The notes: generated by a model from the letters alone, not told the origin. Positions 27,358-48,923 are shown, counted from the stretch's first letter. The stretch: 52,898 bases of DNA from an uncultured Eubacteriales bacterium (GCA_900319955.1 ONQM01000015.1:1-52898), one strand, 5' to 3'. A program made the numbers and translations.

Positions 27358-28833
27358 ATGGAAAAACAAGAAATTATAAAGAATATTATTGAACGTTCTG
27401 GTGGAGATATCTACCTAGGTGTTGTAGGAGCGGTTAGAACTGGTAAATCAACATTCATAAAGAAAGTTGCAGAAAACCTAATAATACCTAACATGAACGA
27501 TGAATATGAAAAGAAAAGACTTTTAGATGAACTACCACAATCTGCTAAAGGTAAAATGATAATGACAACAGAGCCTAAATTTGTACCAAGTAAGGCTGCA
27601 AACATTAAAATAGATAACTTTAATTGTAAAGTAAGACTAATAGATTGTGTTGGCTTTGCAATTAATGGTGCAGATGGACTAACAGTAGATGGAGCACCTC
27701 GTATGGTTAAAACACCATGGTATGATGAAGAAGTACCATTTGTAGAAGCCGCTGAAATAGGAACAGAAAAAGTAATCAAAGAGCATTCAACAATAGGAAT
27801 AGTTCTAACAACAGATGGATCAATTGGAGAGTTTACAAGGGGAGACTACCTAGAAGCAGAAGAAAAAGTAATAACAGAACTAAAAGAAATAAATAAACCA
27901 TTTATAGTTGTTTTAAATACAACACATAAAGAATCTAAAGAAACAGAAAAAATAAGAAAAAGCATTGAAGAAAAATATAATGCAACAACACTTGCAATAA
28001 ACATTGAAACAATGAATAAAGAAGATATGTATACTATACTTAAAGCAGCACTCTATGAATACCCAGTAACAGAAATAAAAGTATCTATGCCAGACTGGAT
28101 TGGAATACTAGATTCACATCATGAAATAAAGAAAAAATACATGGATGAAATAAGAAAAAGTGTTATAAACGTTGATAAACTAAAAGATGTAGAAAAAATA
28201 AATAGTAACTTTGAAAAATGTCCTGAAATAGAAAAAGCATTTGTAAAAGAAATAGATCCTAAAACAGGTACAGTTACAATAGAGCTCCATGCACCTAATA
28301 ACCTATTTGATAAAACACTAAAAGAAATAATGAATATAGATGTTAAAACAAAAGCAGATTTATTAAAAGTATTCCAAGAATTTAACATAGCAAAATCGGA
28401 GTATGACAACATAAAATATGCTTTAAAGATGGTTAAAGAAACAGGATATGGAGTAGCAATACCTAAAATAAACGATATGAAAATAATAAAACCTGAAGTT
28501 GTAAAAGAAGGAGCAAGATATGGAGTTAGAATAAAGTCAGTCGCTCCAACTATTCACTTAATAAAAGTAAATGTAGAATCAACCTTTGAACCAATTATAG
28601 GTAGTGAAAAAGAATCAAAAGAATTAGCAGATAACCTTCTTAAAAACTATAAAGACAATAAAGAAAACTTATGGAATAGTGAAATATTTGGAAGAACAAT
28701 TAATAATATAGTAGAAGAAGGAGTAAAAGCTAAAATAAATATGATGCCAGATAATATAAGATATAAACTAGGTAAAACAATAACTAAAGTAGTAAATAAA
28801 GGATCAAATAACTTAATAACAATAGTTATATAG
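27358..28833 (+). CDS. spoIVA: stage IV sporulation protein A
   Basis: 491 aa with an N-terminal Walker A (GVVGAVRTGKSTFIKK) and the full-length SpoIVA pattern. Confidence 0.9.
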   Translation: MEKQEIIKNIIERSGGDIYLGVVGAVRTGKSTFIKKVAENLIIPNMNDEYEKKRLLDELPQSAKGKMIMTTEPKFVPSKAANIKIDNFNCKVRLIDCVGFAINGADGLTVDGAPRMVKTPWYDEEVPFVEAAEIGTEKVIKEHSTIGIVLTTDGSIGEFTRGDYLEAEEKVITELKEINKPFIVVLNTTHKESKETEKIRKSIEEKYNATTLAINIETMNKEDMYTILKAALYEYPVTEIKVSMPDWIGILDSHHEIKKKYMDEIRKSVINVDKLKDVEKINSNFEKCPEIEKAFVKEIDPKTGTVTIELHAPNNLFDKTLKEIMNIDVKTKADLLKVFQEFNIAKSEYDNIKYALKMVKETGYGVAIPKINDMKIIKPEVVKEGARYGVRIKSVAPTIHLIKVNVESTFEPIIGSEKESKELADNLLKNYKDNKENLWNSEIFGRTINNIVEEGVKAKINMMPDNIRYKLGKTITKVVNKGSNNLITIVI

Positions 28834-34548: not shown

Positions 34549-35829
34549 CTAAGGTTTTAATGCTGTTATTGGTAAAATGTAAATACCTGTTACTGGATCT
34601 TTTGCAACATATGTAGAATTTGAGGTTATAATACACATAAACTTAGGCTTTTTTGTCATCTTATCTTTAAATTTAAGTAAAGTAGTTTTAGCTTCTTCTA
34701 TTTTATTGTTTCCAAGTTTTATCTCAACAGCAGCATATTCTCCATCAGGAAATTCCAAGATTGAATCAACTTCAAGTCCACTTACATTGTCTCTAAAGTG
34801 AAATAAATGCCCTCCTAAATATTCAATATAAATTTTTAAATCTCTTTCTACTAATGACTCAAATAAAAATCCAAAAGTATTTAAATCATTTAAAAGTTTT
34901 TCTGGAGTCAAATCAAGAATTGCTGCTGGTAAAGAAGGATCAACATAATGCCTTTTTGATGACTTTCCAACTCTTTTTGATGAACGAAAATTATCACTAT
35001 ATGCTTCTTGATTTTCTAATATATTAAGTCTTGAAAGTATATCAATATAATCTGAAATAGTATTTCTACTTTCGATTAAATCTTCTTTATTGGAATTTGA
35101 ATAATTAAAAATATCATTCATAATAGTTTGATTACTAACAATAGTTGATTCATTTCTAGCTAAGCTTCCAAGAAGTAATGTCATCTTGTTTTTATCTCTA
35201 GTTTTATCTTCATTTATATCATTTGAAAGAATTGTTTCAATATATCCTTTCGGAACAAGATTTGCAACATCTTTTGGTACATTTAAATTGCTAGGCCATC
35301 CTCCTCTAATTATTAAATAAGCAATTTCTAAAAGTGATGGTACTTTTACATTTTGATCTTTTTGATTATCATTATACATGTCTGTAATTGATGCTTGTCC
35401 TGTTGAATCCTTAGATTCATAAAGAGACATTGGATACATTTTTAATTTACCAATCCTACCTGCACCAGAATGAAAAATTTCTTTTCTTTCTTCACTATTT
35501 AATTTTGTAGAACATGTAAGTATATAATTTCCTTTTTTCTGTGTTTCATCACATTTTCTACGAACTCTATCCCAAATTTGGGGAAGCTTAATCCATTCAT
35601 CTATAAGTTCAGGCTTACTTTCATTTAAAATTAAATTGGTATTTAAAGATGCACGTTCAAAAGTTTCATCATCATCTAAAAATACACTACTATTTGATGC
35701 ATTTGTTGCAGTCCAAGTTTTTCCACACCATTTAGCTCCTTCAACTGAAACAGCTCCAAATGCTTGCAAATATTTTTTTAATATTTCATCTGCAAGCCTT
35801 GGCAAATATTTTTTCTCATCAAAATTCAT
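34549..35829 (-). CDS. AAA-superfamily ATPase with DUF4143-like C-terminal domain (COG1373-like)
   Basis: 426 aa with a degenerate P-loop (GAKWCGKTW) and a C-terminal restriction-endonuclease-like region (..[14 protein letters not shown]..). Confidence 0.7.
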
Positions 35830-35877
35830 TTTGACTCACCTCTCACCATATATAATTCATTATAACATAGCAATCAT

Positions 35878-35969
35878 CATTGTGCAACTTTTAAGCTTTT
35901 TGTTGTGCAATTTTTAGCCTTTTCATTGTGCAATATTTAAACTTTTTGTTGTGCAATTTTTAAAATAAT
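35878..35969. repeat. 4 x 23-bp tandem direct repeat
   Basis: The four units are cattgtgcaacttttaagctttt, tgttgtgcaatttttagcctttt, cattgtgcaatatttaaactttt and tgttgtgcaatttttaaaataat, with core TTGTGCAA. They lie between the stop of ATPase 36002-37279 and the start of ATPase 34549-35829. Confidence 0.85.
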
Positions 35970-36001
35970 TTTATATATAAAAAGTTAATCTAAAGCAATG
36001 A

Positions 36002-37279
36002 TTAACTTAAAATTTCATCTAAACAAAATATTGCATATACTGGAAGATATCTAACTTCCTTCTTACTAGAAAAATTATTCTCAGTTATTCTATATGCTTC
36101 TAAACATAAAAACTTCTTCATAAATACAGATAAACTTTTAGCCTTACTATTTTTAATAGTTGCAAGCTCAATTGGTATAATCTTACCCATTCTGTTCTGT
36201 ACGACAAATGAAAGTTCTGCTTTACCTTCAGACTGATAATAATACATAGGGCAAGATAGTTCTGCTAAGGTCTTTGCAATAAAATTCTCATATAAAGTTT
36301 CTCTTATCTTATCACTTGTCATAATATCTTTTCTAGTTAAATGCATCATATATCCTAAAAGACCAACATCATTTAAATAAAGTTTAAAACTATCTTTCTC
36401 TCTGCAACTAGAAAGAGGACTCTTCGCTTCCATTATCTTATAACTTCTATAAACCATCTGATTAGTAACTAAAAACTCAATAGAATCTTCAAACTCTTTC
36501 GCTCTTCTGCCTTCACCTAAAACTCCATATTGAAACTTCTTATTAGTCTTTTTAAGCTGTAAAGGTATACTATCAAATACTTTTTCACATCTTTCAACAT
36601 CTATTAAATTCTTAGCATTTAAAAACTCTCTCTTATAAGTATCAATAATCTTACCCTTAATAGAATCTAAGAAATAATCACTCTTACCCTTTATATAAGC
36701 ATCAACAACTTCTGGCATACCACCTACTATTAAATATTCTGTGAAAAGTTCTAATGCTACTTGATGAAAAGGGCAAGTTCTCTTTTTCTTAAAACTTTCA
36801 CGTATTAATCCTGCTAAATTCTTCTCTTCCTTAGCCCATAAAAACTCTTCAAAATCCATAGAAGACATACTCTTAAATTGTAACTCTTCTCCTTTAAACT
36901 CTTTTAACTTTTCTCTTCTAGATGTAAGCATAATTATATTGTAAGAAGCATACTTTTCACTAAATAATTTAATAGCTTTAACAATTTCATTATTATTAAC
37001 ATTATCTAAAATTATTAAAGTATCATTTTCCATTATAGTTTCTCCAGACATAATACCAAGATTCATAATAATCCTTTCAGGTACTTTATCTTTCTTAAAT
37101 AAATCTATAATCTCTTTATTATTATCTGTATTAAAATAAACGGTATTCTTATAATACTTTTTACCAAAGTCTAAAACAGAATATGTCTTTCCAACTTGTT
37201 TTGGTCCATAAATTAAAAGTGGTTTCTTAATCCTATCATTCTTCCACTTAACTAAGAATTCAGTAATTTTTCGTTCCAT
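36002..37279 (-). CDS. AAA-superfamily ATPase with DUF4143-like domain
   Basis: 425 aa with Walker A GPKQVGKT and Walker B LIILDNV. Confidence 0.75.
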   Translation of the reverse strand: MERKITEFLVKWKNDRIKKPLLIYGPKQVGKTYSVLDFGKKYYKNTVYFNTDNNKEIIDLFKKDKVPERIIMNLGIMSGETIMENDTLIILDNVNNNEIVKAIKLFSEKYASYNIIMLTSRREKLKEFKGEELQFKSMSSMDFEEFLWAKEEKNLAGLIRESFKKKRTCPFHQVALELFTEYLIVGGMPEVVDAYIKGKSDYFLDSIKGKIIDTYKREFLNAKNLIDVERCEKVFDSIPLQLKKTNKKFQYGVLGEGRRAKEFEDSIEFLVTNQMVYRSYKIMEAKSPLSSCREKDSFKLYLNDVGLLGYMMHLTRKDIMTSDKIRETLYENFIAKTLAELSCPMYYYQSEGKAELSFVVQNRMGKIIPIELATIKNSKAKSLSVFMKKFLCLEAYRITENNFSSKKEVRYLPVYAIFCLDEILS

Positions 37280-37342
37280 TTATTGTAGCCTCCTTACATC
37301 TTTCTTACTTAATTATATATTTTTATAACCCTTAAGTCAATC

Positions 37343-37369
37343 AAAAAGAGTAGAAAATTTATTCTACTC
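37343..37369 (-). terminator. rho-independent terminator
   Basis: GAGTAGAA, a 6-nt loop, then TTCTACTC, followed by a T5 tail on the minus strand. It lies 7 nt after the stop of ORF 37376-38584. Confidence 0.7.
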
Positions 37370-37375
37370 AATTAA

Positions 37376-38554
37376 TTAAATATTATCCAAATTATCCATT
37401 AAAAGAAAATCTTTAAGTTTAATATGCTTAACATTTGCAGTTGAATAATCAAAATCATCATTCGTTATTATTATTTTCTTGCTATCATTGTCCAAATTAT
37501 TAAATACTCTAAATTCTCTTTCATAATTTTTTTCCTCAACTATAGTGTAAGCAACCTGTATATAATATTTCTTATTATTTTTAATCGCAAGAAAATCAAT
37601 TCCTTTATCATCATTGTTAAAGACTTTTACTTCATAGTCCATATATAATAATTCATTATAAACGATATTTTCAAGATTATGAGTTAAATCAAATCTACCT
37701 GATAACTGTCTTATAGAATTTAACGATACATCAGCATCATATAATTTGAAATAATACTTTAAATCTTCTTTAGTTTTAGTATTAAATGGAGCTATCTTAT
37801 CTATTATAAAAGCCTCTTCCAAATGATCCAAATAACTTATAATTGTATTAATAGAGCCACTTATCTTTTCACCCTTTAAATATGTTTCAATACTTCTAGT
37901 AGAAAAAACTCTACCATTAGACTTTAACACATAATCAACTATTCTTTTAAATAAATTTTCATTCTTAATATTATACCTATTAATTAAATCATTATATATA
38001 ATAGTATTATTTAAATCACTTAAATACCTATTCCTAGCATCATCAGTATTAAACTCAAATCTTTTAGGAAAACCGCCCCAAATAAGATAATCCATAATAC
38101 TTGCCTCAATTCCAAGCTCTTTACTATATTCTAATATTTCTTTATAAACAAATGGTCTTACTCTAAAAGAAACATATCTTCCAGAAAATTCTCTAGATAA
38201 AATCTTAGAATTAGATCCAGAAATAAAAACTGAATTATTATGAAGTCTTAAAGTTTTACATGCCTTTTGCCAATTATCAATTTCTTGAATTTCATCAAAA
38301 AACAAATAAGCTTTACCACTTTTTTTATGTTCATCGACATATTTTAATAAACCATCACAATTACAAATACTAGAAGATAATATTTCATCTTCAAAATTAA
38401 GGTAAATAATATTATCACTTTTTTTAGCTATTTCATCTCTTATTTCTTCAAGAATAACAGACTTACCACATCTACGTATACCAGTAATAATCTTTATCAA
38501 ATCAGAATCATAAAATTCTCTTATTTTTTCAATATAATGTTCTCTAATTATCAT
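37376..38554 (-). CDS. AAA-superfamily ATPase (AAA_14 / DUF4143-like)
   Basis: About 392 aa with Walker A GIRRCGKS and Walker B LFFDEIQ. The start is taken at the ATG at 38554 after GGTGAT. Confidence 0.75.
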   Translation of the reverse strand: MIIREHYIEKIREFYDSDLIKIITGIRRCGKSVILEEIRDEIAKKSDNIIYLNFEDEILSSSICNCDGLLKYVDEHKKSGKAYLFFDEIQEIDNWQKACKTLRLHNNSVFISGSNSKILSREFSGRYVSFRVRPFVYKEILEYSKELGIEASIMDYLIWGGFPKRFEFNTDDARNRYLSDLNNTIIYNDLINRYNIKNENLFKRIVDYVLKSNGRVFSTRSIETYLKGEKISGSINTIISYLDHLEEAFIIDKIAPFNTKTKEDLKYYFKLYDADVSLNSIRQLSGRFDLTHNLENIVYNELLYMDYEVKVFNNDDKGIDFLAIKNNKKYYIQVAYTIVEEKNYEREFRVFNNLDNDSKKIIITNDDFDYSTANVKHIKLKDFLLMDNLDNI

Positions 38555-38608
38555 TTTAATCACCATTATAATTATACTGAACAATTTTTAGATTAAATGT
38601 AAAATTGT

Positions 38609-39877
38609 TCAATTGCCTAAATAAGTAATCCTAGCATATCCATTACCTGAATGTCCTACTGCAGTAGAACCATCTGGTTGAGGCTGTCCTACATATTCTT
38701 CCTTTTCAGTAGTCCAGTTATATCCTGCTCCATCTATCATTACTGTATCTGTAAATATATAGTTACTATAATGGTAAGAACATGTTATATCTGTTGTTCC
38801 ATCTGTACAAGTATTACCACTAGAATCCATTCTTTGTTTTATATTATCTTCAGTTGAATCTTCTGTTATTGCTACACATCCATTATGTCCTGAAATGAAA
38901 GATGATCCTCCGCCACCACCATGACCTGTACCGCCAACAGTTGTTCCACCACCAGGACCACCTCCATAATAACCAGAACCGCCACCACCAGCACCAACTA
39001 GACTTGAATAATTAATTGAATTTCCGCCAACTCCAAATGTGCCTGATGTGGATAAATTATTTTCAGTTACAATTATTCCTGCACCTAGACCTAGATTTTT
39101 TCCAACTTTTCCACCAGAAGTTTGTGTTGCACCAAATCCATAGCATTCAAGATCACCATGAGCTTGATAGTAATTTCCATTATATCCTTTTAGACCACCT
39201 GCAATGCTATTATTATCACTATATGAATATATTCCATCTCCGCCGCCTCCGCCAGCAACAAGAATTCTAGATTTTAATGAATTAAAGTTATTCCAACTTC
39301 CACCATTTAATCTGACATCTGTAGCTCCACCACCGCCAGCACCTTGATTATGTTCTGTACTATAAACTTTTTGAGGTTCTAAATACCCTGTTTCATTATC
39401 ATTGCCTAACAAAGTTCCATAACCACCAGAACCGCCACCATTAAAAGAAACTAAAAAATCATATTTTCCCGTTTGGCCAACATAAACATAGATTATTTTA
39501 TCTTTATCAATTTTTAGTATTCCAGATACATATGCACCAGTTGAATATTTACCATATCGACCAGGAATCTCAGGTTCAGAGTTATTCCACGTGTAAGAAT
39601 CTCTTGCTACTCCTCCACTTGCTCCCCAAAGTTCAATTTTATATTTTCCAGTTTTAGGTACTATAAAGGTTTGTTTTCCTCCGGTGTAATCAAAATTATA
39701 GATTCCACCAGACTTGATTGCTATTTTATTTTTACTGTTAATAGATTTTGTGAATAAAGCATTACTACTGCCAATTATTCTTATACAATTAACTATTGTT
39801 AATACTGAAAATATAACTATACTTGTTTTTAATATTTTAATTATATTTTTTTCTTTATTATTCATCATAATCACCAT
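38609..39877 (-). CDS. secreted glycine-rich-domain protein
   Basis: 422 aa with an N-terminal TM/signal segment and a SipW-type-like motif (..IGSSNALFTKS..). It then shows FDYTGGKQTFIVPKTGKYKIELWGASGG.. and long GGGG/GxGG tracts. Confidence 0.65.
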   Translation of the reverse strand: MVIMMNNKEKNIIKILKTSIVIFSVLTIVNCIRIIGSSNALFTKSINSKNKIAIKSGGIYNFDYTGGKQTFIVPKTGKYKIELWGASGGVARDSYTWNNSEPEIPGRYGKYSTGAYVSGILKIDKDKIIYVYVGQTGKYDFLVSFNGGGSGGYGTLLGNDNETGYLEPQKVYSTEHNQGAGGGGATDVRLNGGSWNNFNSLKSRILVAGGGGGDGIYSYSDNNSIAGGLKGYNGNYYQAHGDLECYGFGATQTSGGKVGKNLGLGAGIIVTENNLSTSGTFGVGGNSINYSSLVGAGGGGSGYYGGGPGGGTTVGGTGHGGGGGSSFISGHNGCVAITEDSTEDNIKQRMDSSGNTCTDGTTDITCSYHYSNYIFTDTVMIDGAGYNWTTEKEEYVGQPQPDGSTAVGHSGNGYARITYLGN

Positions 39878-39941: not shown

Positions 39942-40229
39942 GTGGTGATTAAAGTGAAAAAAATTTATGATGAAAACAATATTTATCAGAATATAGGTAA
40001 CAATTTAAAGAAACTATATTCTAAAATTTCAGATAAAAATTATAAAAACAAAACTGATAAACTAGAAATGGTAAGTTCAGAAATAGGTATATCAGCATCT
40101 TTCCTACAACATATTATAAATGGAACAAATAAAAATCAAAGACCATCTCTTCCAACTTTAGTCGCTATATGTAATTATTTTGAAATAAATATTGATGAAT
40201 TACTAAAAGATAATAATCAAAAAGGCTAA
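39942..40229 (+). CDS. XRE-family helix-turn-helix regulator
   Basis: 95 aa (GTG start). The HTH reads ..MVSSEIGISASFLQHIINGT.. and ..LPTLVAICNYFEINIDELL. It is divergent from the glycine-rich gene, with a 64-nt gap. Confidence 0.75.
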   Translation: MVIKVKKIYDENNIYQNIGNNLKKLYSKISDKNYKNKTDKLEMVSSEIGISASFLQHIINGTNKNQRPSLPTLVAICNYFEINIDELLKDNNQKG

Positions 40230-40747: not shown

Positions 40748-40778
40748 AAGAAAAAGAAGTCCAATTATTTAGACTTCT
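40748..40778 (-). terminator. rho-independent terminator of htrA
   Basis: AGAAGTC..GACTTCT hairpin spanning the stop codon, followed by a T-rich tail on the minus strand. Confidence 0.6.
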
Positions 40779-41868
40779 GTAAAGTAACCTTAGTAGTACG
40801 TTCTTTTTTATCTCTTAAATAAGTTATTTCAATAGTATCACCAGGTTTATACTTATAAAGTTCATATCTTAAGTAAGCTATATTCTTAACTTTTTCTTTA
40901 TTAATAGCAGTTATAATATCACCTTTTTGTAAATCAGATCTAGCCGCTCCAGATCCTTTAGAAACATCAATTACAACAACACCATCAGTAGAACCATCTG
41001 TAATATCAATACCGCTTCTATATAGATATGTAGTATCAGTAACATTAAGCATAGAAATACCTAAAACTGGCCACTCTATTTCTTTTCCCTGCTCTAGATT
41101 CTCAATATGACTCATTGCATATTCAATTGGAATAGCAAATCCCATACCTTCAATTTCTTGATCTACAAGTTTCATTGAAACAATGCCAATAACTTCACCA
41201 TTACTATTAAGAAGTGGTCCTCCAGAGTTACCAGGATTTACCGCAGCATCTATTTGTAAAACTTTCATAACATAATCAGATGTTTCACTATTATTTCCAA
41301 CTGAAACAGACACCATTCTATCTTTTCCAGAAAGAATACCAGATGTAACAGTTCCTCTATACTCATATCCCATAGGAGTACCAATAGTAAATATAGTATC
41401 ACCTACTTTAGACTTTTCACTAGAAGATATTATTGCAACACCCTTGATCTTATTCTTATCCATTCTAATAACAGCAAGATCAAGATACTCATCAGACCCA
41501 AGAACCTTACCTTCTACTTCAGAGTCATCACTCATAACAAGAACAATCTTATTGCATCCATCAATAACATGTTCGTTTGTCATAACATATGCATACTTAT
41601 CATCTGCCTTATAAACAAAACCCGTTCCAGTAGAAGACATATCATTACCCTTATATCCTTCTATCATTACAACAGAGTCTTTAGCCTTATCAACACTAGA
41701 TGCTAGACTATTTTTTTCTATTATAGTCTTACCACTATAGTTCTTAATTACATTATTAGTAGAACCACCATTATTAAATAATCCAGTATACTTATAAAGT
41801 AATCCAACAATTAATATTCCTATTACTATACCTAAAACAATGTACAGAATTTTATTCATTTTCTTCAT
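40765..41868 (-). CDS. htrA: HtrA/DegP-family serine protease with PDZ domain
   Basis: 367 aa with an N-terminal TM helix, the catalytic motifs TNEHVI, ..DLAV.. and GNSGGPL, and a C-terminal PDZ domain. Confidence 0.92.
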   Translation of the reverse strand: MKKMNKILYIVLGIVIGILIVGLLYKYTGLFNNGGSTNNVIKNYSGKTIIEKNSLASSVDKAKDSVVMIEGYKGNDMSSTGTGFVYKADDKYAYVMTNEHVIDGCNKIVLVMSDDSEVEGKVLGSDEYLDLAVIRMDKNKIKGVAIISSSEKSKVGDTIFTIGTPMGYEYRGTVTSGILSGKDRMVSVSVGNNSETSDYVMKVLQIDAAVNPGNSGGPLLNSNGEVIGIVSMKLVDQEIEGMGFAIPIEYAMSHIENLEQGKEIEWPVLGISMLNVTDTTYLYRSGIDITDGSTDGVVVIDVSKGSGAARSDLQKGDIITAINKEKVKNIAYLRYELYKYKPGDTIEITYLRDKKERTTKVTLQKSK

Positions 41869-42814
41869 CTGTTATATAACTCCTTTCTATATTCATAATA
41901 TCACTCCAGTTAGAAGGAAATCCCATCTTTCTAAGTACTTTATCAACACTTATTGTATGAAGGTTATGACTAAGCTCATCAACAACATGTTCTATTTCAA
42001 TAATCATGTTTGTAAATTCATCACCTCTTAACATATCCTTCATTATAATTATTAGTGCATATAAATCATTCTTACCATATATATATTCGCCATCTTTTTT
42101 TTCTATGTCTAATACCCTATGAAAAATAGTATCATCAATAGACTTCTGTGATCTATTATCAAATAAAATATCTTCATGAGCACATAAGTTTCTATAATTA
42201 GCAAGAATTGGTAAATAAGTAATTAAAGTATTTTTATCAATATGATAAACATCTGCAATAGCTTTCTGATCTTCTGGCTTTAATATTGAATACATCTCGC
42301 ATACTATTCCAAACGATAAAACTTTAACAAGTATCCATAAAGGAATATATCCGTAATTATTAGCATAATGAAGTGTAGCAGAATGTTCTCTTCCATTTAT
42401 TCTTATCTGTCTTTTCATCTTAGAAATTAAATCTTTAACTTGCCTTCTTCTTTCAGGATCACTTGTAAAGTTTTTCTCTTTCAAATAATCTTTCTCTTTA
42501 TAACCATACTTCTTAGAAAGTTGATAAGAAGAAATAGACTTTAAGTTATTCTCAATAACAAGTAAATTCTTAAATAGTATATTTCTAAGCTTTCTATCAA
42601 ACAAGAACATACTATAAAGCTCTTCAAAAGTAGTGCCTTCTTTGTATCTTCTATCCTCTTCAGACACAAGAAATAAATGTCTATATCCATTTAAAAAGAA
42701 ATAATTTTCTCTTAAAAGAATATCTTTAGCATACTTTTCATTCCGAATAACAAGACCCTTATACTCAAGAATCTTTATTTGTTCATCCAAACTCTTAAAT
42801 CTTTTCTCAATCAT
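41852..42814 (-). CDS. Abi_2 (AbiD/AbiF-like) abortive-infection family protein
   Basis: 320 aa. The N-terminus ..LDEQIKILEYKGLVI.NEKYAKDILLRENYFFLNGYRHLF and ..RNLCAHEDILFD.. are characteristic of the Abi_2 family. A TGgTATAAT extended -10 lies upstream. Confidence 0.75.
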   Translation of the reverse strand: MIEKRFKSLDEQIKILEYKGLVIRNEKYAKDILLRENYFFLNGYRHLFLVSEEDRRYKEGTTFEELYSMFLFDRKLRNILFKNLLVIENNLKSISSYQLSKKYGYKEKDYLKEKNFTSDPERRRQVKDLISKMKRQIRINGREHSATLHYANNYGYIPLWILVKVLSFGIVCEMYSILKPEDQKAIADVYHIDKNTLITYLPILANYRNLCAHEDILFDNRSQKSIDDTIFHRVLDIEKKDGEYIYGKNDLYALIIIMKDMLRGDEFTNMIIEIEHVVDELSHNLHTISVDKVLRKMGFPSNWSDIMNIERSYITDEENE

Positions 42815-42953: not shown

Positions 42954-42991
42954 ATCCTGGTAAATCTGACATGCATCCTATTTTTTACAAG

Positions 42992-43018
42992 AAAAAAAGT
43001 AGATCGCAAAAATCTACT
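42992..43018 (-). terminator. rho-independent terminator of the T7SS operon
   Basis: AGTAGAT, a 7-nt loop, then ATCTACT, followed by T7 on the minus strand. It overlaps the stop of the 46-aa ORF. Confidence 0.75.
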
Positions 43019-43154
43019 TTTGAGAGTCATAAATTATATCATCCATACTCTTTGTTACATCTTCTTTTGAATATCTTTTAGATGCATTATTAATTTCTTC
43101 TTCGGCTTCCTTTAAACACTTATAAATATACTCATTTATATCTTTATTCTTCAT
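43014..43154 (-). CDS. 46-aa helical protein in T7SS operon
   Basis: My translation reads MKNKDINEYIYKCLKEAEEEINNASKRYSKEDVTKSMDDIIYDSQK. It starts 1 nt after the stop of the upstream ORF. Confidence 0.45.
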   Translation of the reverse strand: MKNKDINEYIYKCLKEAEEEINNASKRYSKEDVTKSMDDIIYDSQK

Positions 43155-43155
43155 A

Positions 43156-43383
43156 TTACTCACTAACCTCTTTTAATCTTTCTAATGCTTTATCAGCATC
43201 TCTATTAAGAGAAAGAGTAGAATTAAGATATTCAATATAACTATCAAGTTCTTCAGTAAAACGCTTCATTTTAGATGTATTTGCACTTCCCATATTATTA
43301 AGAATTATTTTTAAATTGTCATTAGCAGCCTTAAGTGTATTAGAAAGTGATTCAAAATCTTCATACTTTAAATTACCTATCAT
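43156..43383 (-). CDS. 75-aa helix-turn-helix-hairpin protein, possible WXG100-like T7SS substrate (no WXG)
   Basis: Track ORF with two predicted helices separated by ..NNMGSANTS.. It sits in the operon position typical of Esx-like proteins. Confidence 0.45.
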   Translation of the reverse strand: MIGNLKYEDFESLSNTLKAANDNLKIILNNMGSANTSKMKRFTEELDSYIEYLNSTLSLNRDADKALERLKEVSE

Positions 43384-43547
43384 TTAGAATCACTACCTTC
43401 CGCTGCAAGCTCAACTGCATCACTTTTATATTCTTCTAAATTATTAATCATATTAATATTATCATTATCTTGATAATTAGTCTTTAAAGACTCTAAACAA
43501 GTAAATATAATATTAACCATTTTTTGATAATTTTCCATGTTACTCAT
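43380..43547 (-). CDS. 55-aa helical protein in T7SS operon
   Basis: My translation reads MSNMENYQKMVNIIFTCLESLKTNYQDNDNINMINNLEEYKSDAVELAAEGSDSK. Its TGA overlaps the next ATG (ATGA). Confidence 0.45.
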   Translation of the reverse strand: MSNMENYQKMVNIIFTCLESLKTNYQDNDNINMINNLEEYKSDAVELAAEGSDSK

Positions 43548-43555
43548 AATATCAC

Positions 43556-43807
43556 CTACACTAAAATTATTTTTGAAGCATTCTTTAAATCTGTATCTTT
43601 AACAAGAAGCTGAAAATCATATTCTTTACCAGTATCTTTACTATAAAAGTTGCTATCATCTTTTATTTCATAGCCAATCATTTCTTCTAATGATTTTTCA
43701 ATGATAGATTTTATAGTACCAATTCTTTTATTAATTGGAATAAAGATATCATACTCTCTTTCATATTCAGGAAGATAAAGTTCAATAAGTATTTTATTTT
43801 TATCCAT
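43556..43807 (-). CDS. esaB: YukD/EsaB-like ubiquitin-fold T7SS protein
   Basis: 83 aa. The pattern ..ELYLPEYEREYDIFIPINKRIGTIK.. and ..LKNASKIILV fits the EsaB/YukD beta-grasp. It overlaps the essC stop by 8 nt. Confidence 0.65.
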   Translation of the reverse strand: MDKNKILIELYLPEYEREYDIFIPINKRIGTIKSIIEKSLEEMIGYEIKDDSNFYSKDTGKEYDFQLLVKDTDLKNASKIILV

Positions 43808-46800
43808 CGTATATATCTCCTTCCAAAAGCTTAATTATAATAGGGCGACTCTTAACAAGAAGTACTCCAAATCCTGAATCAAGCTCTCCTCTAAGTTCAC
43901 TTGGACTACTAGCAAGTTTAAGAGTAAACTGATCAAGTATTCCACTACCAAGCCATAACACATTAGATAAATCAAGATTATCTTTAAGCCATAACTCAAA
44001 TGATAAGTTCTTAACTTTATCTATATTATCAACAATAACAAGCTTTAAATTATCTCTATCACCAATTGTTTTTAATGCATCAGTAAATGCAGTCTTAACA
44101 GCAGGATCAAGCTTAGAAAGTAAATCAGTAAATCCAACAAACATAATAGTATTAACACTATCATTTTTAGAAATTGTATTAGTTAACTCTTTAACAGAAT
44201 CATCAAATGAATCACTAATAACGTCATATGAATCAGTTTCATACATAATATCCATTGTATCAAATACTGTTACATTATTACCATCAATCATAGAAAGAGT
44301 TGTAGCAAGATTATTTATAAAGTCAGGGTATTCATCAACTGATGTACCAGTAACAGTATAAACTTTCTCTTTATCCATATTAACCGCAGCAATTCTTAAA
44401 GAATCTTTTTCAATACCAAGTGGAACAGTTGTAAATGTACCAATTGCATTCTTAACAGTATCTTGAGTAATATTTGCAGGTAGAACTGGTATTCTAGGAG
44501 CACGAGTTTTAAATATTCCATTTAACTTTTTACAAACAACTTTAACATATTCACTTAACTTAGCATTAGGATAAGCATAAGCAGTTTGGAACTCAAATAA
44601 ATCCTCTCTATTAACAAGTCCTCTACCATAAATCTTAGATGGATACTTCTTATGAACATTACCAAGAATTGCAGAATAGTCACTTTCATCATTAAACTGA
44701 AGAACAATATTTTGTGGGAAGTTCTGTCTTATTCTATATCTTAAAGATGTTGTAGTACCTGCTGTAACAACAAACTCTATTCCATACTTGTTCGCTTCTC
44801 TTGTAAGAGTAGAAAGATCATCCGTATAAGCATCAAATGTTTCACTAAATGCATCATAGTTATTAATAACAACAACAATTATTGGAAGAGTCTTACCACT
44901 ATGTTTGATATAGAAATCATAATCTCCGTTATAATCAACAAATAACTTCTTACGTTCTTCAAGCTTTCTATTAAGCATCTTAAGAAGATTAGCAACCTTT
45001 TCTTCATCAGTTGAAAGAATAATATCACCAACTTGAGGAGCATCTTTAAAGTTTCTTAAAGTTTCAGCACCAAAATCCATAATATAAAGGTTAACCTCAT
45101 CAGGAGAATGATCTGTTATAATACTATAAATCATTGTAGTAAGAGCAAGCTCCTTACCAGATCCAGCACTACCATAAATAATTGCACTACCTTCTCTAGA
45201 AAGAGGAAGAGTAAGTAAATCTTGTCTCTGATTATTAGGATCATCAAGTTCACCAATTATTGGATTAATATCATGTAAAAGAGGTGTATAATTATATTTT
45301 TTCTTAAGATCTTCAACAAATATTTCAGCAGGAATCTTAGGAAGCCATAAACGTCTAGCATACTTATTTTCCTTTTTAGCCTCATCACAAATATACTTAA
45401 CGATATTAGTAATTTCTTCACCCTGTGCTACTAACTTAACTTTTCTATTAGTACTATCTATACTTCTAATAACATTACCAACATCATCAATAAAATCGAT
45501 TCTCTCATCAATCTTTGTTTGAGACTTTTCTTGTGGATAATATTTAGCACCAGTCCATGCAGACTGACCCATTGCAAATAGTTCATTATAACCAACTTGT
45601 AAATAGAATCTACCAGTTTCCTTTAAAGCAGCAGCAACTGGAGACTTAATCATATCCATAGAGTCAGATCTGTCTTGAACCTTTAAACAAATTCTGAATT
45701 TAGAGTTAGACCAGATCTGATCATCAACAACACCAGCAGGCTTCTGAGTTGCAAGAATTAAGTGAACACCTAAGGAACGACCAATACGTGCAGTAGATAT
45801 AAGTTCATCCATAAAGTCAGGCTGTTGATCTTTAAGTTCTGCAAATTCATCAGATACAATAATCAAATGTGGAATAGGTTCCTTTACAAGACCTTCTTTA
45901 AATAAAGTCTGATACTTATAAATATCAATAGTACTTTCATTTAAAGCATCACGTGTTTCATTAAACTTCTTTTGTCTTCTTCTAAGCTCACTTTGAATAG
46001 ATGCTAAACTTCTGTAAATTTCTGCAGTATCAAGGTTTGTAATAGTTCCAGCAAGATGAGGAAGACGAAGACCTGTTTCTTTATTTTCAAAGGCACCAGC
46101 AAGTCCACCACCTTTATAATCGATAAGAATAAAACTAACTTCTTCTGGACTATAATTAAGAGCCATAGAAAGAATATAAGTAATAATAAGTTCACTTTTA
46201 CCAGAACCAGTCATACCAGCAATTAAGCCATGTGGTCCATGAGCTTTTTCATGTAAATCGAGTTTAAATAGTTCTCTATTCTTATCAACACCAATAGGAG
46301 CTTGAAGTGTCTTAGTAGGATTACTATTCTTCCATTTATTAAGTATATCCAGCTGCTCTACTTTACCACATTTATACATTTCAAGAAAACTAATCATATT
46401 AGGAAGTTCACTATTTTCTTTAGCAGTTTCAACAGGAATATTTGCAAGTACTTTAGCAACCTGATACATATCTATATTAGGATCATAATCTGCAATAAAC
46501 TCTTTCTGCTTATTAGAAACAATCTCATTTTCAAACACACCAGATTTAGCATCATTAATGCTTATAAATGTATGACACTCATTAGGAAGATTAGCAAGTC
46601 TATTATTAATAATTGTCATACTAAAACCACTATTAACACTAGCATCACATATATCCTTTATAATTTCAAGTTCACGTACTTGTTTAAAATCATCAATAAT
46701 GATAAAGAAATAAGGTGAAAAATTCTTATAATTTTTTTCATCATCGCTTAATGAAACAGTTCCTTCATCATCATTTGATGTTTCAGTTCTTTCTTGGAAT

Positions 46801-48371
46801 ACTTGTTCAAGAGCTAAACTAAGCTCTTTCGCCTCATCATTATTAGTAGAGAAAAATCTCATAGTTCTAGAATTATTCCATACATGAGGCATAGTCTTAA
46901 GATATTCCCATCTGCTTTCATTCTTAGAATTAGTAAATATAACAATTTTTAAATCAGTATAACTATGAAAAGTAACAAGCTGTAAAATTAAACCATCAAT
47001 AAATGCGTTTTTCTGTTTCCCTTCTCCAATAATTGCAGTTATATTGTTATTAACAAAAGATAAATTAATAGGAACATTTTCAAGTGTCTTAGACTCTTTA
47101 CCTAAGTCATTAACAAGTTTCATTAAATCATCTTCTTGCAGAGTAAATCTAGCTTCAGGATATTTAACACTACCACTAAACTCCTTATTACCAAGTCCAA
47201 GTCTTAAATCAAGAAAATCGCTTTGATCAATTTCTCTTTCCCATAGATTTCTTTTTCTTCCAACAGCAATGTTATATACCTCACCCAAGGATATATAATT
47301 TTCCTCTAAAACTTTCTTTTCATTTTCCATCTCAGTATGAATCTTTTCTCTTTTAGATTCAATATACTTTCTATACTTATCTTGTCTTAACTTTTCTTGC
47401 TTCTTAACCTTTCTCTTTTGAAATCTTCTATTAAGTAAAGGCCACATAATCATTGAAACAAGCATAAGAACGCACATAACAATTTGAATAGATGCTCCAC
47501 TATTATTACCAGATGATAAGCTAAATAAAGATCCATACCCCATAAATAGTGAAACCATTCCCATACTAAGCATAGGACCAATTACATATAAAAGTGGTGT
47601 ATCATCAGCTTCGTTTTTAGCAGGAGGAGCATCAATTGTTATTGAAACAGGCTCTATTCCAGCTTTAAATCTAGGAGATCTAAAGAAATAATCTTCTTCA
47701 TTATAAAAATCAATAACCTCTTCCTTACTATTACCTTCATCTATTGGAGGTTGTACTCTAGGATGTTTTATTTTAAATACACTATTATCCAAACTAACTA
47801 AAGAACCAATATTATTAATAATTAAAGAATTACCAACAGGTATAATCTTTAAACCCATTATAAAAATAATATCGCCATGATAAATTCTAGAATTAACCGC
47901 TAATCTATCATTAACATAAGTTCCATAACTAGTGCTATAATTTTCTAAATACCAAGTACCATTCTGATATATAAGTCCTGCATGTTTAGGAGATATTAAA
48001 GGATAATTATAATTAATCGCACATCCTCTTCCATTACCAATAATAAGTCTAGTGCCTTCCTGTACTTCAACTCTTACATTCTCTTCTCTATCAGGAGATG
48101 CATAAAGCATCATAAAATTATTTTCATTATTAATTCTTAAAAAATATAAATTATGTTCCCTAAGAGCAATAGAATCAATAACAGTTTTATTAGCAATTAT
48201 TTTAGTCTCAAAATTACTCTTTAAATATAAATCACCATCATGAGGCTCAACACTTACAAGATTTCTAGTATTACCCAGTCCATCAGTATCAGTAATCCAA
48301 AAAATCCCGTTAAGATTATCGGGTAATCTAAAATTATATATTTTTGTACGCTTTATAAGTCTAAGTATCAT
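43800..48371 (-). CDS. essC: type VII secretion FtsK/SpoIIIE-family ATPase EssC
   Basis: 1523 aa with N-terminal FHA-like repeats (..GDIIFIMGLKI..) and two TM helices around aa 260-320. There are three ATPase domains. D1 has Walker A GMTGSGKSE and Walker B IIVSDEF. D2 has GSAGSGKE. D3 has no P-loop. Confidence 0.9.
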   Translation of the reverse strand: MILRLIKRTKIYNFRLPDNLNGIFWITDTDGLGNTRNLVSVEPHDGDLYLKSNFETKIIANKTVIDSIALREHNLYFLRINNENNFMMLYASPDREENVRVEVQEGTRLIIGNGRGCAINYNYPLISPKHAGLIYQNGTWYLENYSTSYGTYVNDRLAVNSRIYHGDIIFIMGLKIIPVGNSLIINNIGSLVSLDNSVFKIKHPRVQPPIDEGNSKEEVIDFYNEEDYFFRSPRFKAGIEPVSITIDAPPAKNEADDTPLLYVIGPMLSMGMVSLFMGYGSLFSLSSGNNSGASIQIVMCVLMLVSMIMWPLLNRRFQKRKVKKQEKLRQDKYRKYIESKREKIHTEMENEKKVLEENYISLGEVYNIAVGRKRNLWEREIDQSDFLDLRLGLGNKEFSGSVKYPEARFTLQEDDLMKLVNDLGKESKTLENVPINLSFVNNNITAIIGEGKQKNAFIDGLILQLVTFHSYTDLKIVIFTNSKNESRWEYLKTMPHVWNNSRTMRFFSTNNDEAKELSLALEQVFQERTETSNDDEGTVSLSDDEKNYKNFSPYFFIIIDDFKQVRELEIIKDICDASVNSGFSMTIINNRLANLPNECHTFISINDAKSGVFENEIVSNKQKEFIADYDPNIDMYQVAKVLANIPVETAKENSELPNMISFLEMYKCGKVEQLDILNKWKNSNPTKTLQAPIGVDKNRELFKLDLHEKAHGPHGLIAGMTGSGKSELIITYILSMALNYSPEEVSFILIDYKGGGLAGAFENKETGLRLPHLAGTITNLDTAEIYRSLASIQSELRRRQKKFNETRDALNESTIDIYKYQTLFKEGLVKEPIPHLIIVSDEFAELKDQQPDFMDELISTARIGRSLGVHLILATQKPAGVVDDQIWSNSKFRICLKVQDRSDSMDMIKSPVAAALKETGRFYLQVGYNELFAMGQSAWTGAKYYPQEKSQTKIDERIDFIDDVGNVIRSIDSTNRKVKLVAQGEEITNIVKYICDEAKKENKYARRLWLPKIPAEIFVEDLKKKYNYTPLLHDINPIIGELDDPNNQRQDLLTLPLSREGSAIIYGSAGSGKELALTTMIYSIITDHSPDEVNLYIMDFGAETLRNFKDAPQVGDIILSTDEEKVANLLKMLNRKLEERKKLFVDYNGDYDFYIKHSGKTLPIIVVVINNYDAFSETFDAYTDDLSTLTREANKYGIEFVVTAGTTTSLRYRIRQNFPQNIVLQFNDESDYSAILGNVHKKYPSKIYGRGLVNREDLFEFQTAYAYPNAKLSEYVKVVCKKLNGIFKTRAPRIPVLPANITQDTVKNAIGTFTTVPLGIEKDSLRIAAVNMDKEKVYTVTGTSVDEYPDFINNLATTLSMIDGNNVTVFDTMDIMYETDSYDVISDSFDDSVKELTNTISKNDSVNTIMFVGFTDLLSKLDPAVKTAFTDALKTIGDRDNLKLVIVDNIDKVKNLSFELWLKDNLDLSNVLWLGSGILDQFTLKLASSPSELRGELDSGFGVLLVKSRPIIIKLLEGDIYDG

Positions 48372-48432
48372 TTTGTCACCCCAATTAGTATAAAAGTATA
48401 TAATATACCCTTTCTACTTTTCTTCCATCTTA

Positions 48433-48461
48433 ATTATATTATTAATATAATCTTTTTTCAA
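48433..48461 (-). promoter_or_regulatory. sigmaA-type promoter of essC operon
   Basis: On the minus strand: TTGAAA (48461-48456), 17 nt, then TATAAT (48438-48433). A GGGGTGA Shine-Dalgarno precedes the ATG at 48371. Confidence 0.65.
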
Positions 48462-48623: not shown

Positions 48624-48923
48624 TTATTTATCCTTATTATTTCTTAAATCATCAAAAGAACAAAGCTTACCTTCTAATGTCTTATAAATAGTATCCGCTC
48701 CAAGAAAACTAAATAGCCCAACCCATAAACTTTCAGGAAACTTAACACTAGAAAAACTCTTACAAAATATAAGCCCAACAATCATATTAACAAGTAAATT
48801 ATAAAACATTAAATATTTAGATGATTTAAAAAACTTCTTAGTCTTCTGAACAAAAGCACAAGTAACTGCAGAAAGAGCAACTGAAGTAATAAGAAGTTCT
48901 TGCAATAAATTTAATTTCAACAT
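48624..48923 (-). CDS. small three-TM membrane protein (holin-like topology)
   Basis: About 99 aa from the internal ATG at 48923 (MLKLNLLQELLITSVALSAV..). The longer track ORF would overlap the rpsI 3' end. Confidence 0.45.
   Translation of the reverse strand: MLKLNLLQELLITSVALSAVTCAFVQKTKKFFKSSKYLMFYNLLVNMIVGLIFCKSFSSVKFPESLWVGLFSFLGADTIYKTLEGKLCSFDDLRNNKDK

What the first reader, a model, noticed from the sequence alone, without database searches (positions are those of the whole stretch)
43014..48461. Minimal type VII secretion module: EssC plus a YukD-like protein plus three tiny helical proteins, without EsaA, EssA or EssB
The module is a single operon with its own consensus promoter (48461-48433) and terminator (42992-43018). 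It encodes a 1523-aa EssC (FHA-like N-terminus, 2 TM helices, three ATPase domains with progressive P-loop decay). It also encodes an 83-aa ubiquitin-fold EsaB/YukD-like protein and ORFs of 55, 75 and 46 aa, chained by ATGA or 1-nt junctions. None of the small proteins has a WXG motif. The membrane partners that define Firmicute T7SSb (EsaA, EssA, EssB) and LXG-type toxins are not adjacent. The flanks are rpsI on one side and abi/htrA on the other. This is either an unusually reduced secretion apparatus with non-canonical substrates, or a dispersed system.
Basis: partly seen in the sequence, partly recalled or inferred. Interest (0 to 1): 0.65.

Follow-up and report, generated by a model that had tools for sequence, protein, structure and literature searches.

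The report
Stripped-down type VII secretion operon
An uncultured rumen/gut Bacillota bacterium carries a conserved operon with only the motor ATPase of a type VII secretion system, its small ubiquitin-like partner and two tiny helical-hairpin proteins, possibly the simplest natural version of this machine, though partner genes elsewhere in the genome could not be ruled out.

Summary
On the minus strand, 48371-43014 encodes a genuine EssC (1523 aa; NCBIfam EssC 1027 bits against a cut-off of 778), followed by proteins of 83, 55, 75 and 46 aa. The 83-aa protein has no YukD Pfam hit, but it folds confidently (pLDDT 94) as a ubiquitin-like beta-grasp and lies next to EssC in essentially all ~40 related loci with usable flanks. 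EssC, the ubiquitin-like protein and the 55- and 75-aa proteins are conserved together, always beside rplM-rpsI, in at least 15 species of uncultured gut/rumen Bacillota. The 46-aa ORF is specific to this species.

The 55-aa protein is a predicted helical hairpin. Its family has a conserved Trp at the turn (Tyr in the window) and weak reciprocal homology to a Pfam-validated tandem WXG100 protein that follows EssC in more distant relatives. The 75-aa protein carries a conserved YxxxD-like C-terminal motif.

No EssB, EsaA or EssA was recognised in the 52.9-kb window or in the neighbours scanned at ~40 related loci. Metatranscriptome contigs cover the operon.

I read it as a new, streamlined variant beyond the published T7SSa-j. 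Genome-wide absence of partner genes could not be tested, so a dispersed system remains possible.

The parts
48433..48461 (-). Sigma-70-type promoter candidate, TTGAAA-17 nt-TATAAT, for the essC operon
   Evidence: 11 of 12 consensus match. The hexamers are identical and the spacer nearly so in the closest relative L011, whose EssC is only 83% identical. Consensus matches alone are at chance level in this AT-rich DNA.
48372..48432 (-). 5' untranslated leader with the ribosome-binding site GGGGTG
   Evidence: Read from the sequence. Largely conserved with L011. No Rfam family matches it.
43800..48371 (-). EssC/TsxC: membrane FtsK/SpoIIIE-type T7SS ATPase. Layout: FHA region, 2 TM helices, DUF, then D1 (intact Walker A and B), D2 (GxxGxGK-E) and D3 (no P-loop)
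   Evidence: Pfam. NCBIfam TIGR03928, 1027 bits against a cut-off of 778. Best PDB sequence match is B. subtilis YukB 9qks, 408 bits. Motif conservation in 69 homologues. TM helices. 941 homologues in metagenomes.
43556..43807 (-). 83-aa ubiquitin-like (EsaB/YukD/TsxB-type) protein. Its start overlaps the essC stop by 8 nt
   Evidence: AlphaFold2 pLDDT 94, beta-beta-alpha-beta-beta. Foldseek: ubiquitin-like folds including the EccD5 Ubl domain 7np7_D2. No C-terminal Gly-Gly. A family member sits next to EssC in essentially all related loci with usable flanks. 178 homologues. No Pfam, NCBIfam or PDB sequence hit.
43380..43547 (-). 55-aa helical hairpin, a shortened and degenerate WXG100-like protein (TsxA-like)
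   Evidence: AlphaFold2 pLDDT 84, helices 3-24 and 31-53. The family has conserved W-x-x-x-D-N at the turn; the window has Y-Q-D-N-D-N. hhalign against the N-terminal half of a Pfam-validated tandem WXG100: E 2.8e-4, probability 41%, W aligned to W. Reciprocal HMM hits at E 1.5e-4 to 7.8e-4 among 979 ORFs. Present in all close-clade loci. The Pfam WXG100 model is not hit.
43156..43383 (-). 75-aa predicted helical-hairpin partner, with the conserved C-terminal motif L-[YN]-x-[DE]-[AS]-D-x-A-[LV] (YxxxD-like). Its ATG overlaps the 55-aa stop (ATGA)
   Evidence: Alignment of 14 species: indels are confined to the centre, and F42, Y49, D64 and A66 are conserved. The ATGA overlap recurs in relatives (coordinates). 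A profile search of the PDB finds only antiparallel helical hairpins (MCP tip, E 1.2e-4). No WXG100 Pfam hit. Comparison with WXG100 is not significant.
43014..43154 (-). 46-aa ORF. Species-specific, and its status as a gene is uncertain
   Evidence: Found only in contigs of the same species (L001-L003). Absent from L011, where the gene of the 75-aa-type protein is followed directly by a terminator-like hairpin. No family hits.
42988..43021 (-). Intrinsic terminator: 11-bp stem, 5-nt loop, U-run
   Evidence: RNA fold -9.7 kcal/mol, z -2.6; 1 of 200 shuffles folds as well.
48624..48923 (-). 99-aa membrane protein (2-3 TM helices) between rpsI and essC. Syntenic in the close clade; whether it belongs to the system is unresolved
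   Evidence: Cluster c11 is present upstream of EssC in 12 loci, but often separated from it by other genes. Only weak similarity to the A118 holin (E 0.012, below cut-off). Only a weak hairpin and T-run follow it (-5.8 kcal/mol, z -0.65).

Best explanation
This is a vertically inherited, streamlined type VII secretion system. Its conserved genetic unit has four parts:
- an EssC-type ATPase;
- a YukD/EsaB-type ubiquitin-like protein;
- a translationally coupled pair of mini helical-hairpin proteins. One of them is a truncated WXG100 derivative. The other carries a YxxxD-like C-terminal motif.

Proposed working (inferred from the families named, unless marked as shown):
1. EssC oligomerises. 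Its two TM helices per protomer form the membrane channel.
2. The ubiquitin-like protein is clamped between the EssC FHA region and the DUF domain and stabilises each protomer. This is what YukD does with YukB in the B. subtilis cryo-EM structure.
3. The 55- and 75-aa proteins are made in equal amounts (the ATGA overlap is shown) and form an EsxA/EsxB-like four-helix bundle.
4. The C-terminal tail of the 75-aa protein docks on the degenerate D3 domain.
5. ATP hydrolysis by D1 drives export. D1 is the only domain with intact Walker A and B motifs (shown).

The hairpin pair is the core secreted cofactor or substrate. The T7SSb membrane partners EssB, EsaA and EssA are not part of the conserved unit and are probably dispensable in this lineage.
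For: - EssC identity and domain state.
- Ubl fold and constant adjacency to EssC.
- YukD-YukB clamp: PMC12637312.
- Conserved order rplM-rpsI...EssC-Ubl-c3-c4...Abi_2-HtrA in L004-L017 and L027 (EssC 53-83% identical).
- Relatives at about 40% identity have EssC plus the Ubl plus other hairpin proteins after rpoB-rpoC or near ffh. When the locus sits elsewhere, only these genes travel together.
- One MAG has two such loci (L017, L040).
- The 55-aa protein is a hairpin weakly homologous to WXG100.
- YxxxD-like motif and central indels in the 75-aa family.
- None of the ~40 neighbouring proteins scanned hit the EssB/YukC, EsaA or EssA Pfam families.
- The operon is covered by contigs of bovine gut metatranscriptomes at depth 2-6, against 16-44 for rplM/rpsI. 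A DNA-like run is flat at 28-46.
- Promoter and leader are conserved. Terminator.
Against: - Genome-wide absence of essB, esaA and essA was not tested. All published T7SS variants (a-j) have at least one further component (PMC11217815).
- EssC keeps its FHA region. In T7SSb the FHA region also contacts EssB.
- The 55- and 75-aa proteins do not reach the Pfam WXG100 model. The link between the 75-aa protein and WXG100 is not significant.
- The heterodimer, the docking on D3 and secretion itself are all inferred.
- The RNA evidence comes from assembled contigs and could include DNA carry-over.
- A conserved 99-aa membrane protein nearby could be an unrecognised partner.
Confidence: 0.55

Rival explanations
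1. Dispersed or partly unrecognised system. The operon is only the cytoplasmic and motor half of a T7SS. Essential membrane partners are encoded elsewhere, or nearby in unrecognisable form. These could be EssB/EsaA/EssA homologues or non-homologous replacements such as the 99-aa membrane protein.
For: - Every described T7SS variant has extra components.
- The FHA region is retained, and YukC binds the FHA2 domain of YukB.
- A syntenic 99-aa membrane protein lies upstream.
- Some distant relatives have large membrane-anchored proteins of 2435-2538 aa right after the locus.
Against: - About 40 loci spanning 38-100% EssC identity, in at least three different chromosomal contexts, never carry such genes next to essC.
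- The 99-aa gene is often separated from essC by unrelated genes and is missing from the distant clades.
- Retention of the FHA region is explained by Ubl clamping alone.
Confidence: 0.25
2. The small proteins are not the cargo. They are Lap/EsxB-like targeting partners for large toxin substrates (LXG, RHS and similar) encoded elsewhere, and the system serves interbacterial competition as T7SSb does.
For: - Weak profile similarity of the 75-aa family to a YwqH-like helper family found in related loci (E 0.0015, probability 17%).
- Small hairpin partners are general in T7SS substrate targeting (PMC11217815).
Against: - No LXG, RHS or immunity-like genes were seen in what was scanned of the window or the close-clade loci.
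- The pair keeps a fixed position directly after essC and the Ubl gene, as tsxA genes do.
- The locus sits in the conserved core genome, not in a variable island.
Confidence: 0.12
3. Remnant of a T7SSb locus in a reduced genome, with no secretion activity or a function unrelated to secretion.
For: - Relatives have small genomes: a 1.53-Mb complete chromosome.
- The window copy of the 55-aa protein has lost the Trp.
- D2 and D3 are degenerate.
Against: - An intact 1500-aa ORF is kept in hundreds of metagenomic sequences.
- D1 motifs are invariant.
- The small ORFs are conserved in length, order and coupling across at least 15 species.
- The operon appears in metatranscriptomes.
- D2/D3 degeneracy is also known in functional EssC proteins (my own knowledge, not checked here).
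Confidence: 0.05

Closest known systems
T7SSb (Ess/Yuk system of Staphylococcus aureus and Bacillus subtilis)
   Same: - An EssC with an N-terminal FHA region, 2 TM helices, DUF and three ATPase domains. It passes the NCBIfam EssC equivalog model, and its best solved relative is YukB.
- A separate small ubiquitin-like partner without Gly-Gly.
- Small helical-hairpin proteins encoded alongside.
   Different: - No EssB/YukC, EsaA/YueB or EssA/YueC in the window or in related loci.
- No protein matching the WXG100 model. Instead there is a coupled pair of 55-69 and 71-83 aa.
- No LXG toxin or immunity genes.
- The locus is fixed beside rplM-rpsI in the core genome.
T7SSg (Acetivibrio/Paenibacillus) and T7SSf (Clostridia), Garrett, Higginson and Palmer 2024 (PMC11217815)
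   Same: - Simple Bacillota variants built round TsxA, TsxB and TsxC.
- T7SSg has a non-identical pair of hairpin proteins.
- T7SSf has FHA domains on TsxC.
   Different: - T7SSg's ATPase lacks FHA domains, and the system has a DUF5050 beta-propeller (TsgL) next to Tad pilus genes.
- T7SSf has a PPM phosphatase, a DUF6382-FHA protein and an AAA+ ATPase.
- None of these is in the window or in the related loci scanned here.
EsxA/EsxB (WXG100) heterodimers of T7SSa
   Same: - Two adjacent, co-translated small helical-hairpin proteins.
- One has an aromatic residue at the turn.
- The other has a YxxxD-like C-terminal motif.
   Different: - About half to three-quarters of the length of WXG100 proteins.
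- The glycine of WXG is absent.
- No significant Pfam WXG100 match.
- Dimerisation and the signal function are untested.
Tandem-WXG100 loci of related gut MAGs (L019-L024, L030, L034, L035, L037)
   Same: - EssC about 40% identical.
- The same Ubl family adjacent to it.
- Embedded among housekeeping genes.
- No EssB, EsaA or EssA.
   Different: - The Ubl gene precedes essC.
- The hairpins are fused into one 205-aa protein that does match Pfam WXG100 (38 bits).
- The locus follows rpoB-rpoC.
- YwqH-like helper proteins are present, and in some loci very large proteins follow.

Membership tests
T7SS core in the broad sense (TsxA + TsxB + TsxC; PMC11217815) | Membrane-bound EccC/EssC-type FtsK/SpoIIIE ATPase with several NTPase domains | tested here: met
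   TIGR03928, 1027 bits against a cut-off of 778. Pfam FtsK_SpoIIIE. YukB is the best PDB match. Walker motifs.
T7SS core in the broad sense (TsxA + TsxB + TsxC; PMC11217815) | Small ubiquitin-like protein (EsaB/YukD type) without a C-terminal Gly-Gly | tested here: met
   AF2 beta-grasp, pLDDT 94. Foldseek ubiquitin-like hits including the EccD5 Ubl domain. Ends in ...KIILV. Always next to EssC. Met on fold only; no sequence-model hit.
T7SS core in the broad sense (TsxA + TsxB + TsxC; PMC11217815) | WXG100-family helical-hairpin protein (EsxA/TsxA) | tested here: inconclusive
   The 55-aa protein is a predicted hairpin with weak reciprocal homology to a validated WXG100. It fails the Pfam model: 1 of 15 members at E 0.12.
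T7SSb (Firmicute Ess/Yuk) | EssB/YukC membrane pseudokinase | tested here: not met
   No Pfam hit among the window ORFs and locus neighbours scanned, and no ORF with a mid-protein single TM helix after a ~200-aa N-domain. Tested at locus level only; the rest of the genome was not searchable.
T7SSb (Firmicute Ess/Yuk) | EsaA/YueB large polytopic envelope protein | tested here: not met
   Apart from EssC, the largest ORF in the window is 576 aa and is EzrA. None in the close-clade loci. Genome-wide: not testable.
T7SSb (Firmicute Ess/Yuk) | EssA/YueC small membrane protein | tested here: inconclusive
   No Pfam hit. A 99-aa membrane protein lies upstream, but it has only sub-threshold holin and BioY similarity.
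T7SSb (Firmicute Ess/Yuk) | EssC with N-terminal FHA domains that lack the phosphothreonine-binding consensus | tested here: met
   FHA hit at 110-169. The Gly-Arg of the pThr site is present in the window (R115) but not conserved among relatives. The first FHA domain is inferred only.
WXG100 (Pfam PF06013) | Significant match to the family model; about 100 aa; W-x-G at the hairpin turn | tested here: not met
   No member of the 55-aa or 75-aa families reaches the cut-off. Lengths are 55-83 aa. The turn is W-x-x-x-D-N in relatives and Y-Q-D-N-D-N in the window.
YukD (Pfam PF08817) | Match to the YukD sequence model | tested here: not met
   No Pfam or NCBIfam hit. A profile of 37 members finds no YukD or EsaB chain in the PDB. 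The fold and the genomic context agree with YukD all the same.
T7SSg / T7SSf (PMC11217815) | T7SSg: ATPase without FHA plus a DUF5050 propeller. T7SSf: PPM phosphatase, DUF6382-FHA protein and AAA+ TsfV | tested here: not met
   FHA is present on EssC. None of these domains occurs in the neighbours scanned.

The most novel reading that the evidence does not exclude
This clade of uncultured gut and rumen Bacillota runs a type VII secretion system made of only EssC, one ubiquitin-like protein and a mini hairpin pair, with no EssB, EsaA, EssA or any substitute. That would be the smallest natural T7SS. It is fixed in the core genome beside ribosomal-protein genes, which hints at a housekeeping role (envelope or spore biogenesis, or host interaction) rather than toxin warfare.
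Probability: 0.4. Interest if true: 0.75.

Novelty: new variant of a known kind. Interest (0 to 1): 0.6.

Why it matters
Which components are truly needed to build a T7SS channel, and whether the EssC/EccC hexamer alone is the pore, is still unsettled. The B. subtilis core complex could not be obtained as a hexamer (PMC12637312). Every described variant, T7SSa to T7SSj, has extra lineage-specific parts (PMC11217815).

A natural system reduced to ATPase, Ubl and hairpin pair would be a compact 5.4-kb operon to reconstitute and image.

The family is also common. The search returned 941 EssC homologues, and single 90% clusters have up to 561 member sequences. They come from human (Hadza), mouse, rabbit, goat, sheep and cattle gut metagenomes. 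That makes it a widespread but unstudied secretion system of uncultured gut commensals.

The published survey of T7SS variants used RefSeq, which probably under-represents these uncultured lineages.

Tried and rejected
- **Phosphothreonine regulation through the FHA domain.** The window has GR...SxxH, but the Arg is not conserved in relatives. Dropped.
- **Sequence-profile searches of the PDB.** The Ubl family found nothing relevant. Neither did the 55-aa family. The 75-aa family found only generic helical hairpins.
- **Foldseek of the 55-aa model.** No significant hit, as expected for a bare hairpin.
- **Homologue search with the 75-aa protein.** It found only itself, so no admissible alignment was available and no structure was predicted for it.
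- **P0245**, a 1301-aa hit to the 55-aa protein, is an unrelated repeat protein.
- **rpoB and rpoC.** Proteins of 1220-1234 aa next to EssC in distant relatives looked like EsaA candidates. The one scanned is RpoB, so its neighbour is presumably RpoC.
- **Other neighbours in distant loci** are RNase J, a histidine kinase, Ffh, NUDIX and VanZ, which are not T7SS parts.
- **The 99-aa membrane protein as EssA or a holin.** Only sub-threshold hits.
- **Rfam.** Nothing in or near the operon.
- **Literature.** No match for 'T7SSk'. No paper links T7SS to RF39, RFN20 or Tenericutes MAGs beyond one incidental co-mention.
Full report
**What is in the sequence**

The minus strand between 48371 and 43014 carries five consecutive ORFs of 1523, 83, 55, 75 and 46 aa. 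They are tightly packed:
- EssC and the 83-aa ORF overlap by 8 nt.
- The 83- and 55-aa ORFs are separated by 8 nt.
- The 55- and 75-aa ORFs overlap by ATGA.
- The 75- and 46-aa ORFs are separated by 1 nt.

The window has 28.8% G+C, so a 1523-codon ORF cannot be chance.

A TTGAAA-17-TATAAT element lies at 48461-48433. Such matches are not rarer than in shuffled sequence (48 found, 58 expected). However, the hexamers are identical, and the spacer and most of the leader conserved, in the closest relative, whose EssC protein is only 83% identical.

After the last ORF there is an 11-bp hairpin followed by a U-run (43021-42988; -9.7 kcal/mol, z -2.6).

**The large protein is a genuine EssC**

- Pfam finds FHA (110-169) and FtsK_SpoIIIE.
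- NCBIfam's equivalog model for Firmicute EssC scores 1027 bits against a cut-off of 778.
- The best solved relative by sequence is B. subtilis YukB (9qks, 408 bits).
- Two TM helices lie at about 259-277 and 290-308.

In an alignment of 69 homologues:
- D1 keeps invariant Walker A (GMTGSGKS) and Walker B (DEF) motifs.
- D2 keeps GxxGxGK, but with Glu or Asp in place of Ser/Thr.
- D3 has no P-loop.

**The 83-aa protein is ubiquitin-like**

It has no Pfam, NCBIfam or PDB sequence match. With an alignment of 51 homologues, AlphaFold2 gives a beta-beta-alpha-beta-beta beta-grasp at mean pLDDT 94. Foldseek returns ubiquitin-like proteins, including the ubiquitin-like domain of EccD5 from the ESX-5 complex. 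The protein ends in ...KIILV, with no Gly-Gly.

A member of this family sits next to EssC in essentially every related locus with usable flanks (cluster c1).

The B. subtilis cryo-EM structure shows YukD gripped between the FHA domains and the DUF domain of YukB (PMC12637312). That explains an obligate EssC-Ubl pair.

**Comparative genomics**

The exact EssC occurs on four metagenome contigs, among them bovine rumen contigs, with identical gene order. A search returned 941 homologues, many from MAGs labelled 'Bacilli bacterium'.

Thirty-seven loci from species-representative genomes were fetched, plus two more. Their ORFs were called and clustered.

*Close clade.* All loci with EssC at least 53% identical have the same order. 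These are 15 species from cattle, goat, sheep, rabbit, mouse and human gut. The order is:
- rplM-rpsI, followed in most loci by the ~100-aa membrane protein and then variable genes;
- then EssC, the Ubl, a 55-69-aa protein and a 71-83-aa protein;
- often SpoIID and a phospholipase C on the other strand;
- then Abi_2 and HtrA.

*Distant relatives.* Relatives at about 40% identity are labelled Tenericutes, Erysipelotrichaceae or Clostridium sp. CAG:524. They have the Ubl and EssC in other housekeeping contexts:
- directly after rplJ-rplL-methyltransferase-rpoB-rpoC;
- or beside ffh, or after rpoZ.

In these loci EssC is followed by other small helical proteins. In one group it is a 205-aa tandem WXG100 protein that does match Pfam PF06013 (38 bits).

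One MAG has two such loci (L017 and L040).

Only EssC, the Ubl and hairpin proteins are found together in every context.

**The small proteins**

*The 55-aa family (25 sequences):*
- It has a conserved W-[TSP]-x-x-D-N at its centre. The window copy reads Y-Q-D-N-D-N.
- AlphaFold2 predicts helix 3-24, a turn at exactly this motif, and helix 31-53 (pLDDT 84).
- Profile-profile comparison aligns it, Trp on Trp, with the N-terminal WXG100 domain of the tandem protein (E 9.5e-4; E 2.8e-4 and probability 41% with more sequences).
- HMM searches among the 979 ORFs of all loci give reciprocal hits and no other cross-family hits (E 1.5e-4 to 7.8e-4).
- No member reaches the Pfam WXG100 cut-off.

I read it as a shortened, degenerate WXG100 relative.

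*The 75-aa family (14 species):*
- Indels are confined to the centre.
- It has invariant F42 and Y49 and a conserved C-terminal L-[YN]-x-[DE]-[AS]-D-x-A-[LV]. In many members this reads Y-x-x-x-D, like the T7SS export motif.
- Its profile finds only antiparallel helical hairpins in the PDB.
- Its similarity to WXG100 is not significant.
- The 4-nt ATGA overlap with the 55-aa gene recurs in relatives (coordinates), as expected for subunits made in equal amounts.

*The 46-aa ORF* exists only in this species. In the nearest relative the gene of the 75-aa-type protein runs straight into a terminator-like hairpin.

**Expression**

Three bovine gut metatranscriptome runs hold contigs on essC, the Ubl gene and the 55/75-aa junction. 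Their depth is 2-6, against 16-44 on rplM/rpsI. A run that behaves like DNA is flat at 28-46.

This fits low-level transcription. Contig depth is a poor measure, and DNA carry-over cannot be excluded.

**What is absent, and the limit of that statement**

- No neighbour scanned in the window or in the related loci matches EssB/YukC, EsaA/YueB or EssA/YueC.
- Besides EssC, the largest ORF of the window is EzrA at 576 aa.
- No ORF has the EssB topology.
- No LXG-type toxin was seen near the close-clade loci.

I could not search the rest of any genome of this clade. Genome-wide absence is therefore untested.

**Comparison with what is known**

Garrett, Higginson and Palmer (2024, PMC11217815) define T7SSa to T7SSj. 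All share TsxC, nearly all share TsxA and TsxB, and each has further components: kinases, phosphatases, FHA proteins, large envelope proteins, a beta-propeller or EspG-like chaperones. That survey used RefSeq.

The simplest variants differ from this one:
- T7SSg lacks FHA on its ATPase and adds a DUF5050 propeller.
- T7SSf adds a phosphatase, a DUF6382-FHA protein and an AAA+ ATPase.

Neither fits here. Full-text searches found no later description of an A/B/C-only system, nor any paper that links T7SS to these uncultured lineages beyond an incidental co-mention.

**Verdict**

It is best read as a new, streamlined T7SS variant whose functional unit is EssC, a YukD-type Ubl and a coupled mini hairpin pair. 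The unit is inherited vertically at a core-genome position in common but uncultured gut Bacillota.

The mechanism is inferred from T7SSa and T7SSb knowledge, not shown. It comprises the Ubl clamp, a heterodimer, a C-terminal signal on D3 and D1-driven export.

The main rival, unlinked or unrecognised membrane partners, keeps about a quarter of the probability until complete genomes are searched.

Noticed in passing
window 48624-48923 (-): A 99-aa protein with 2-3 TM helices lies between rpsI and essC. It is conserved upstream of EssC in 12 loci of the close clade. Its only similarities are sub-threshold (A118-type holin, E 0.012, and BioY). A possible unrecognised membrane partner, or just a syntenic neighbour.
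   Followed up: partly
window 40765-42814 (-): An Abi_2/AbiD-like gene (PADLOC AbiD, E 4e-60) overlaps the start of an HtrA-type serine protease gene by 17 nt. This pair follows the T7SS unit in all close-clade loci with enough downstream flank. An abortive-infection-type gene coupled to htrA in the core genome is odd.
   Followed up: partly
window 34549-38584 (-): Three tandem paralogues of AAA_14/DUF4143 ATPases, each matching the PADLOC candidate defence family PDC-S01 (E down to 3e-119).
   Followed up: partly
window 24137-25610 (-): A 373-aa reverse transcriptase (Pfam RVT_1; PADLOC RT E 5.5e-34, with DRT/UG-type models also hit). Its start overlaps an upstream 124-aa ORF that has no family hit. 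Probably a defence-type or retron-like RT.
   Followed up: partly
window 38609-39877 (-): A 422-aa protein with an N-terminal TM anchor and a long glycine-rich region (Pfam ALK_LTK_GRD, from the precomputed annotation of the identical locus L001). A divergently oriented small HTH gene lies beside it (39942-40229 +).
   Followed up: no
window 27358-28833 (+); 14559-16289 (-): SpoIVA (all three domains, E 5e-104) and EzrA are present, and relatives have SpoIID. This small-genome organism therefore keeps sporulation and cell-wall genes and is not a wall-less mollicute.
   Followed up: no
window 43014-43154 (-); L011 6800-6900: The 46-aa ORF and about 150 nt around it are an insertion specific to this species. 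The nearest relative goes from the gene of the 75-aa-type protein straight to a terminator-like hairpin.
   Followed up: yes
L030 15836-23143; L035 15875-23491: In relatives at ~40% EssC identity, the locus is followed by proteins of 2435-2538 aa with an N-terminal zinc ribbon, one TM helix and a huge region without Pfam hits. They are candidates for envelope-spanning components or substrates.
   Followed up: partly
L017 and L040 (both from MAG CAJMSU01): One genome carries two minimal EssC-Ubl-hairpin loci. One lies beside rpsI (EssC 55% identical to the window's). The other lies between rplL and rpoB (38% identical).
   Followed up: partly
L018 8889-9863: A CHAP/NlpC-P60-type cell-wall hydrolase candidate lies directly upstream of EssC in one distant relative (sub-threshold hits only). 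It recalls the S. aureus T7SS hydrolase EssH. The same contig has a second copy of the Ubl gene (2518-2775).
   Followed up: no
window 11541-11647 (-): An S10-Clostridia ribosomal-protein leader (Rfam RF03136, 35.4 bits, just above the gathering score) lies upstream of the S10 operon.
   Followed up: no
window 20985-22070 (-): A 361-aa, extremely charged (Glu/Lys/Asp-rich) protein with no family hit.
   Followed up: no
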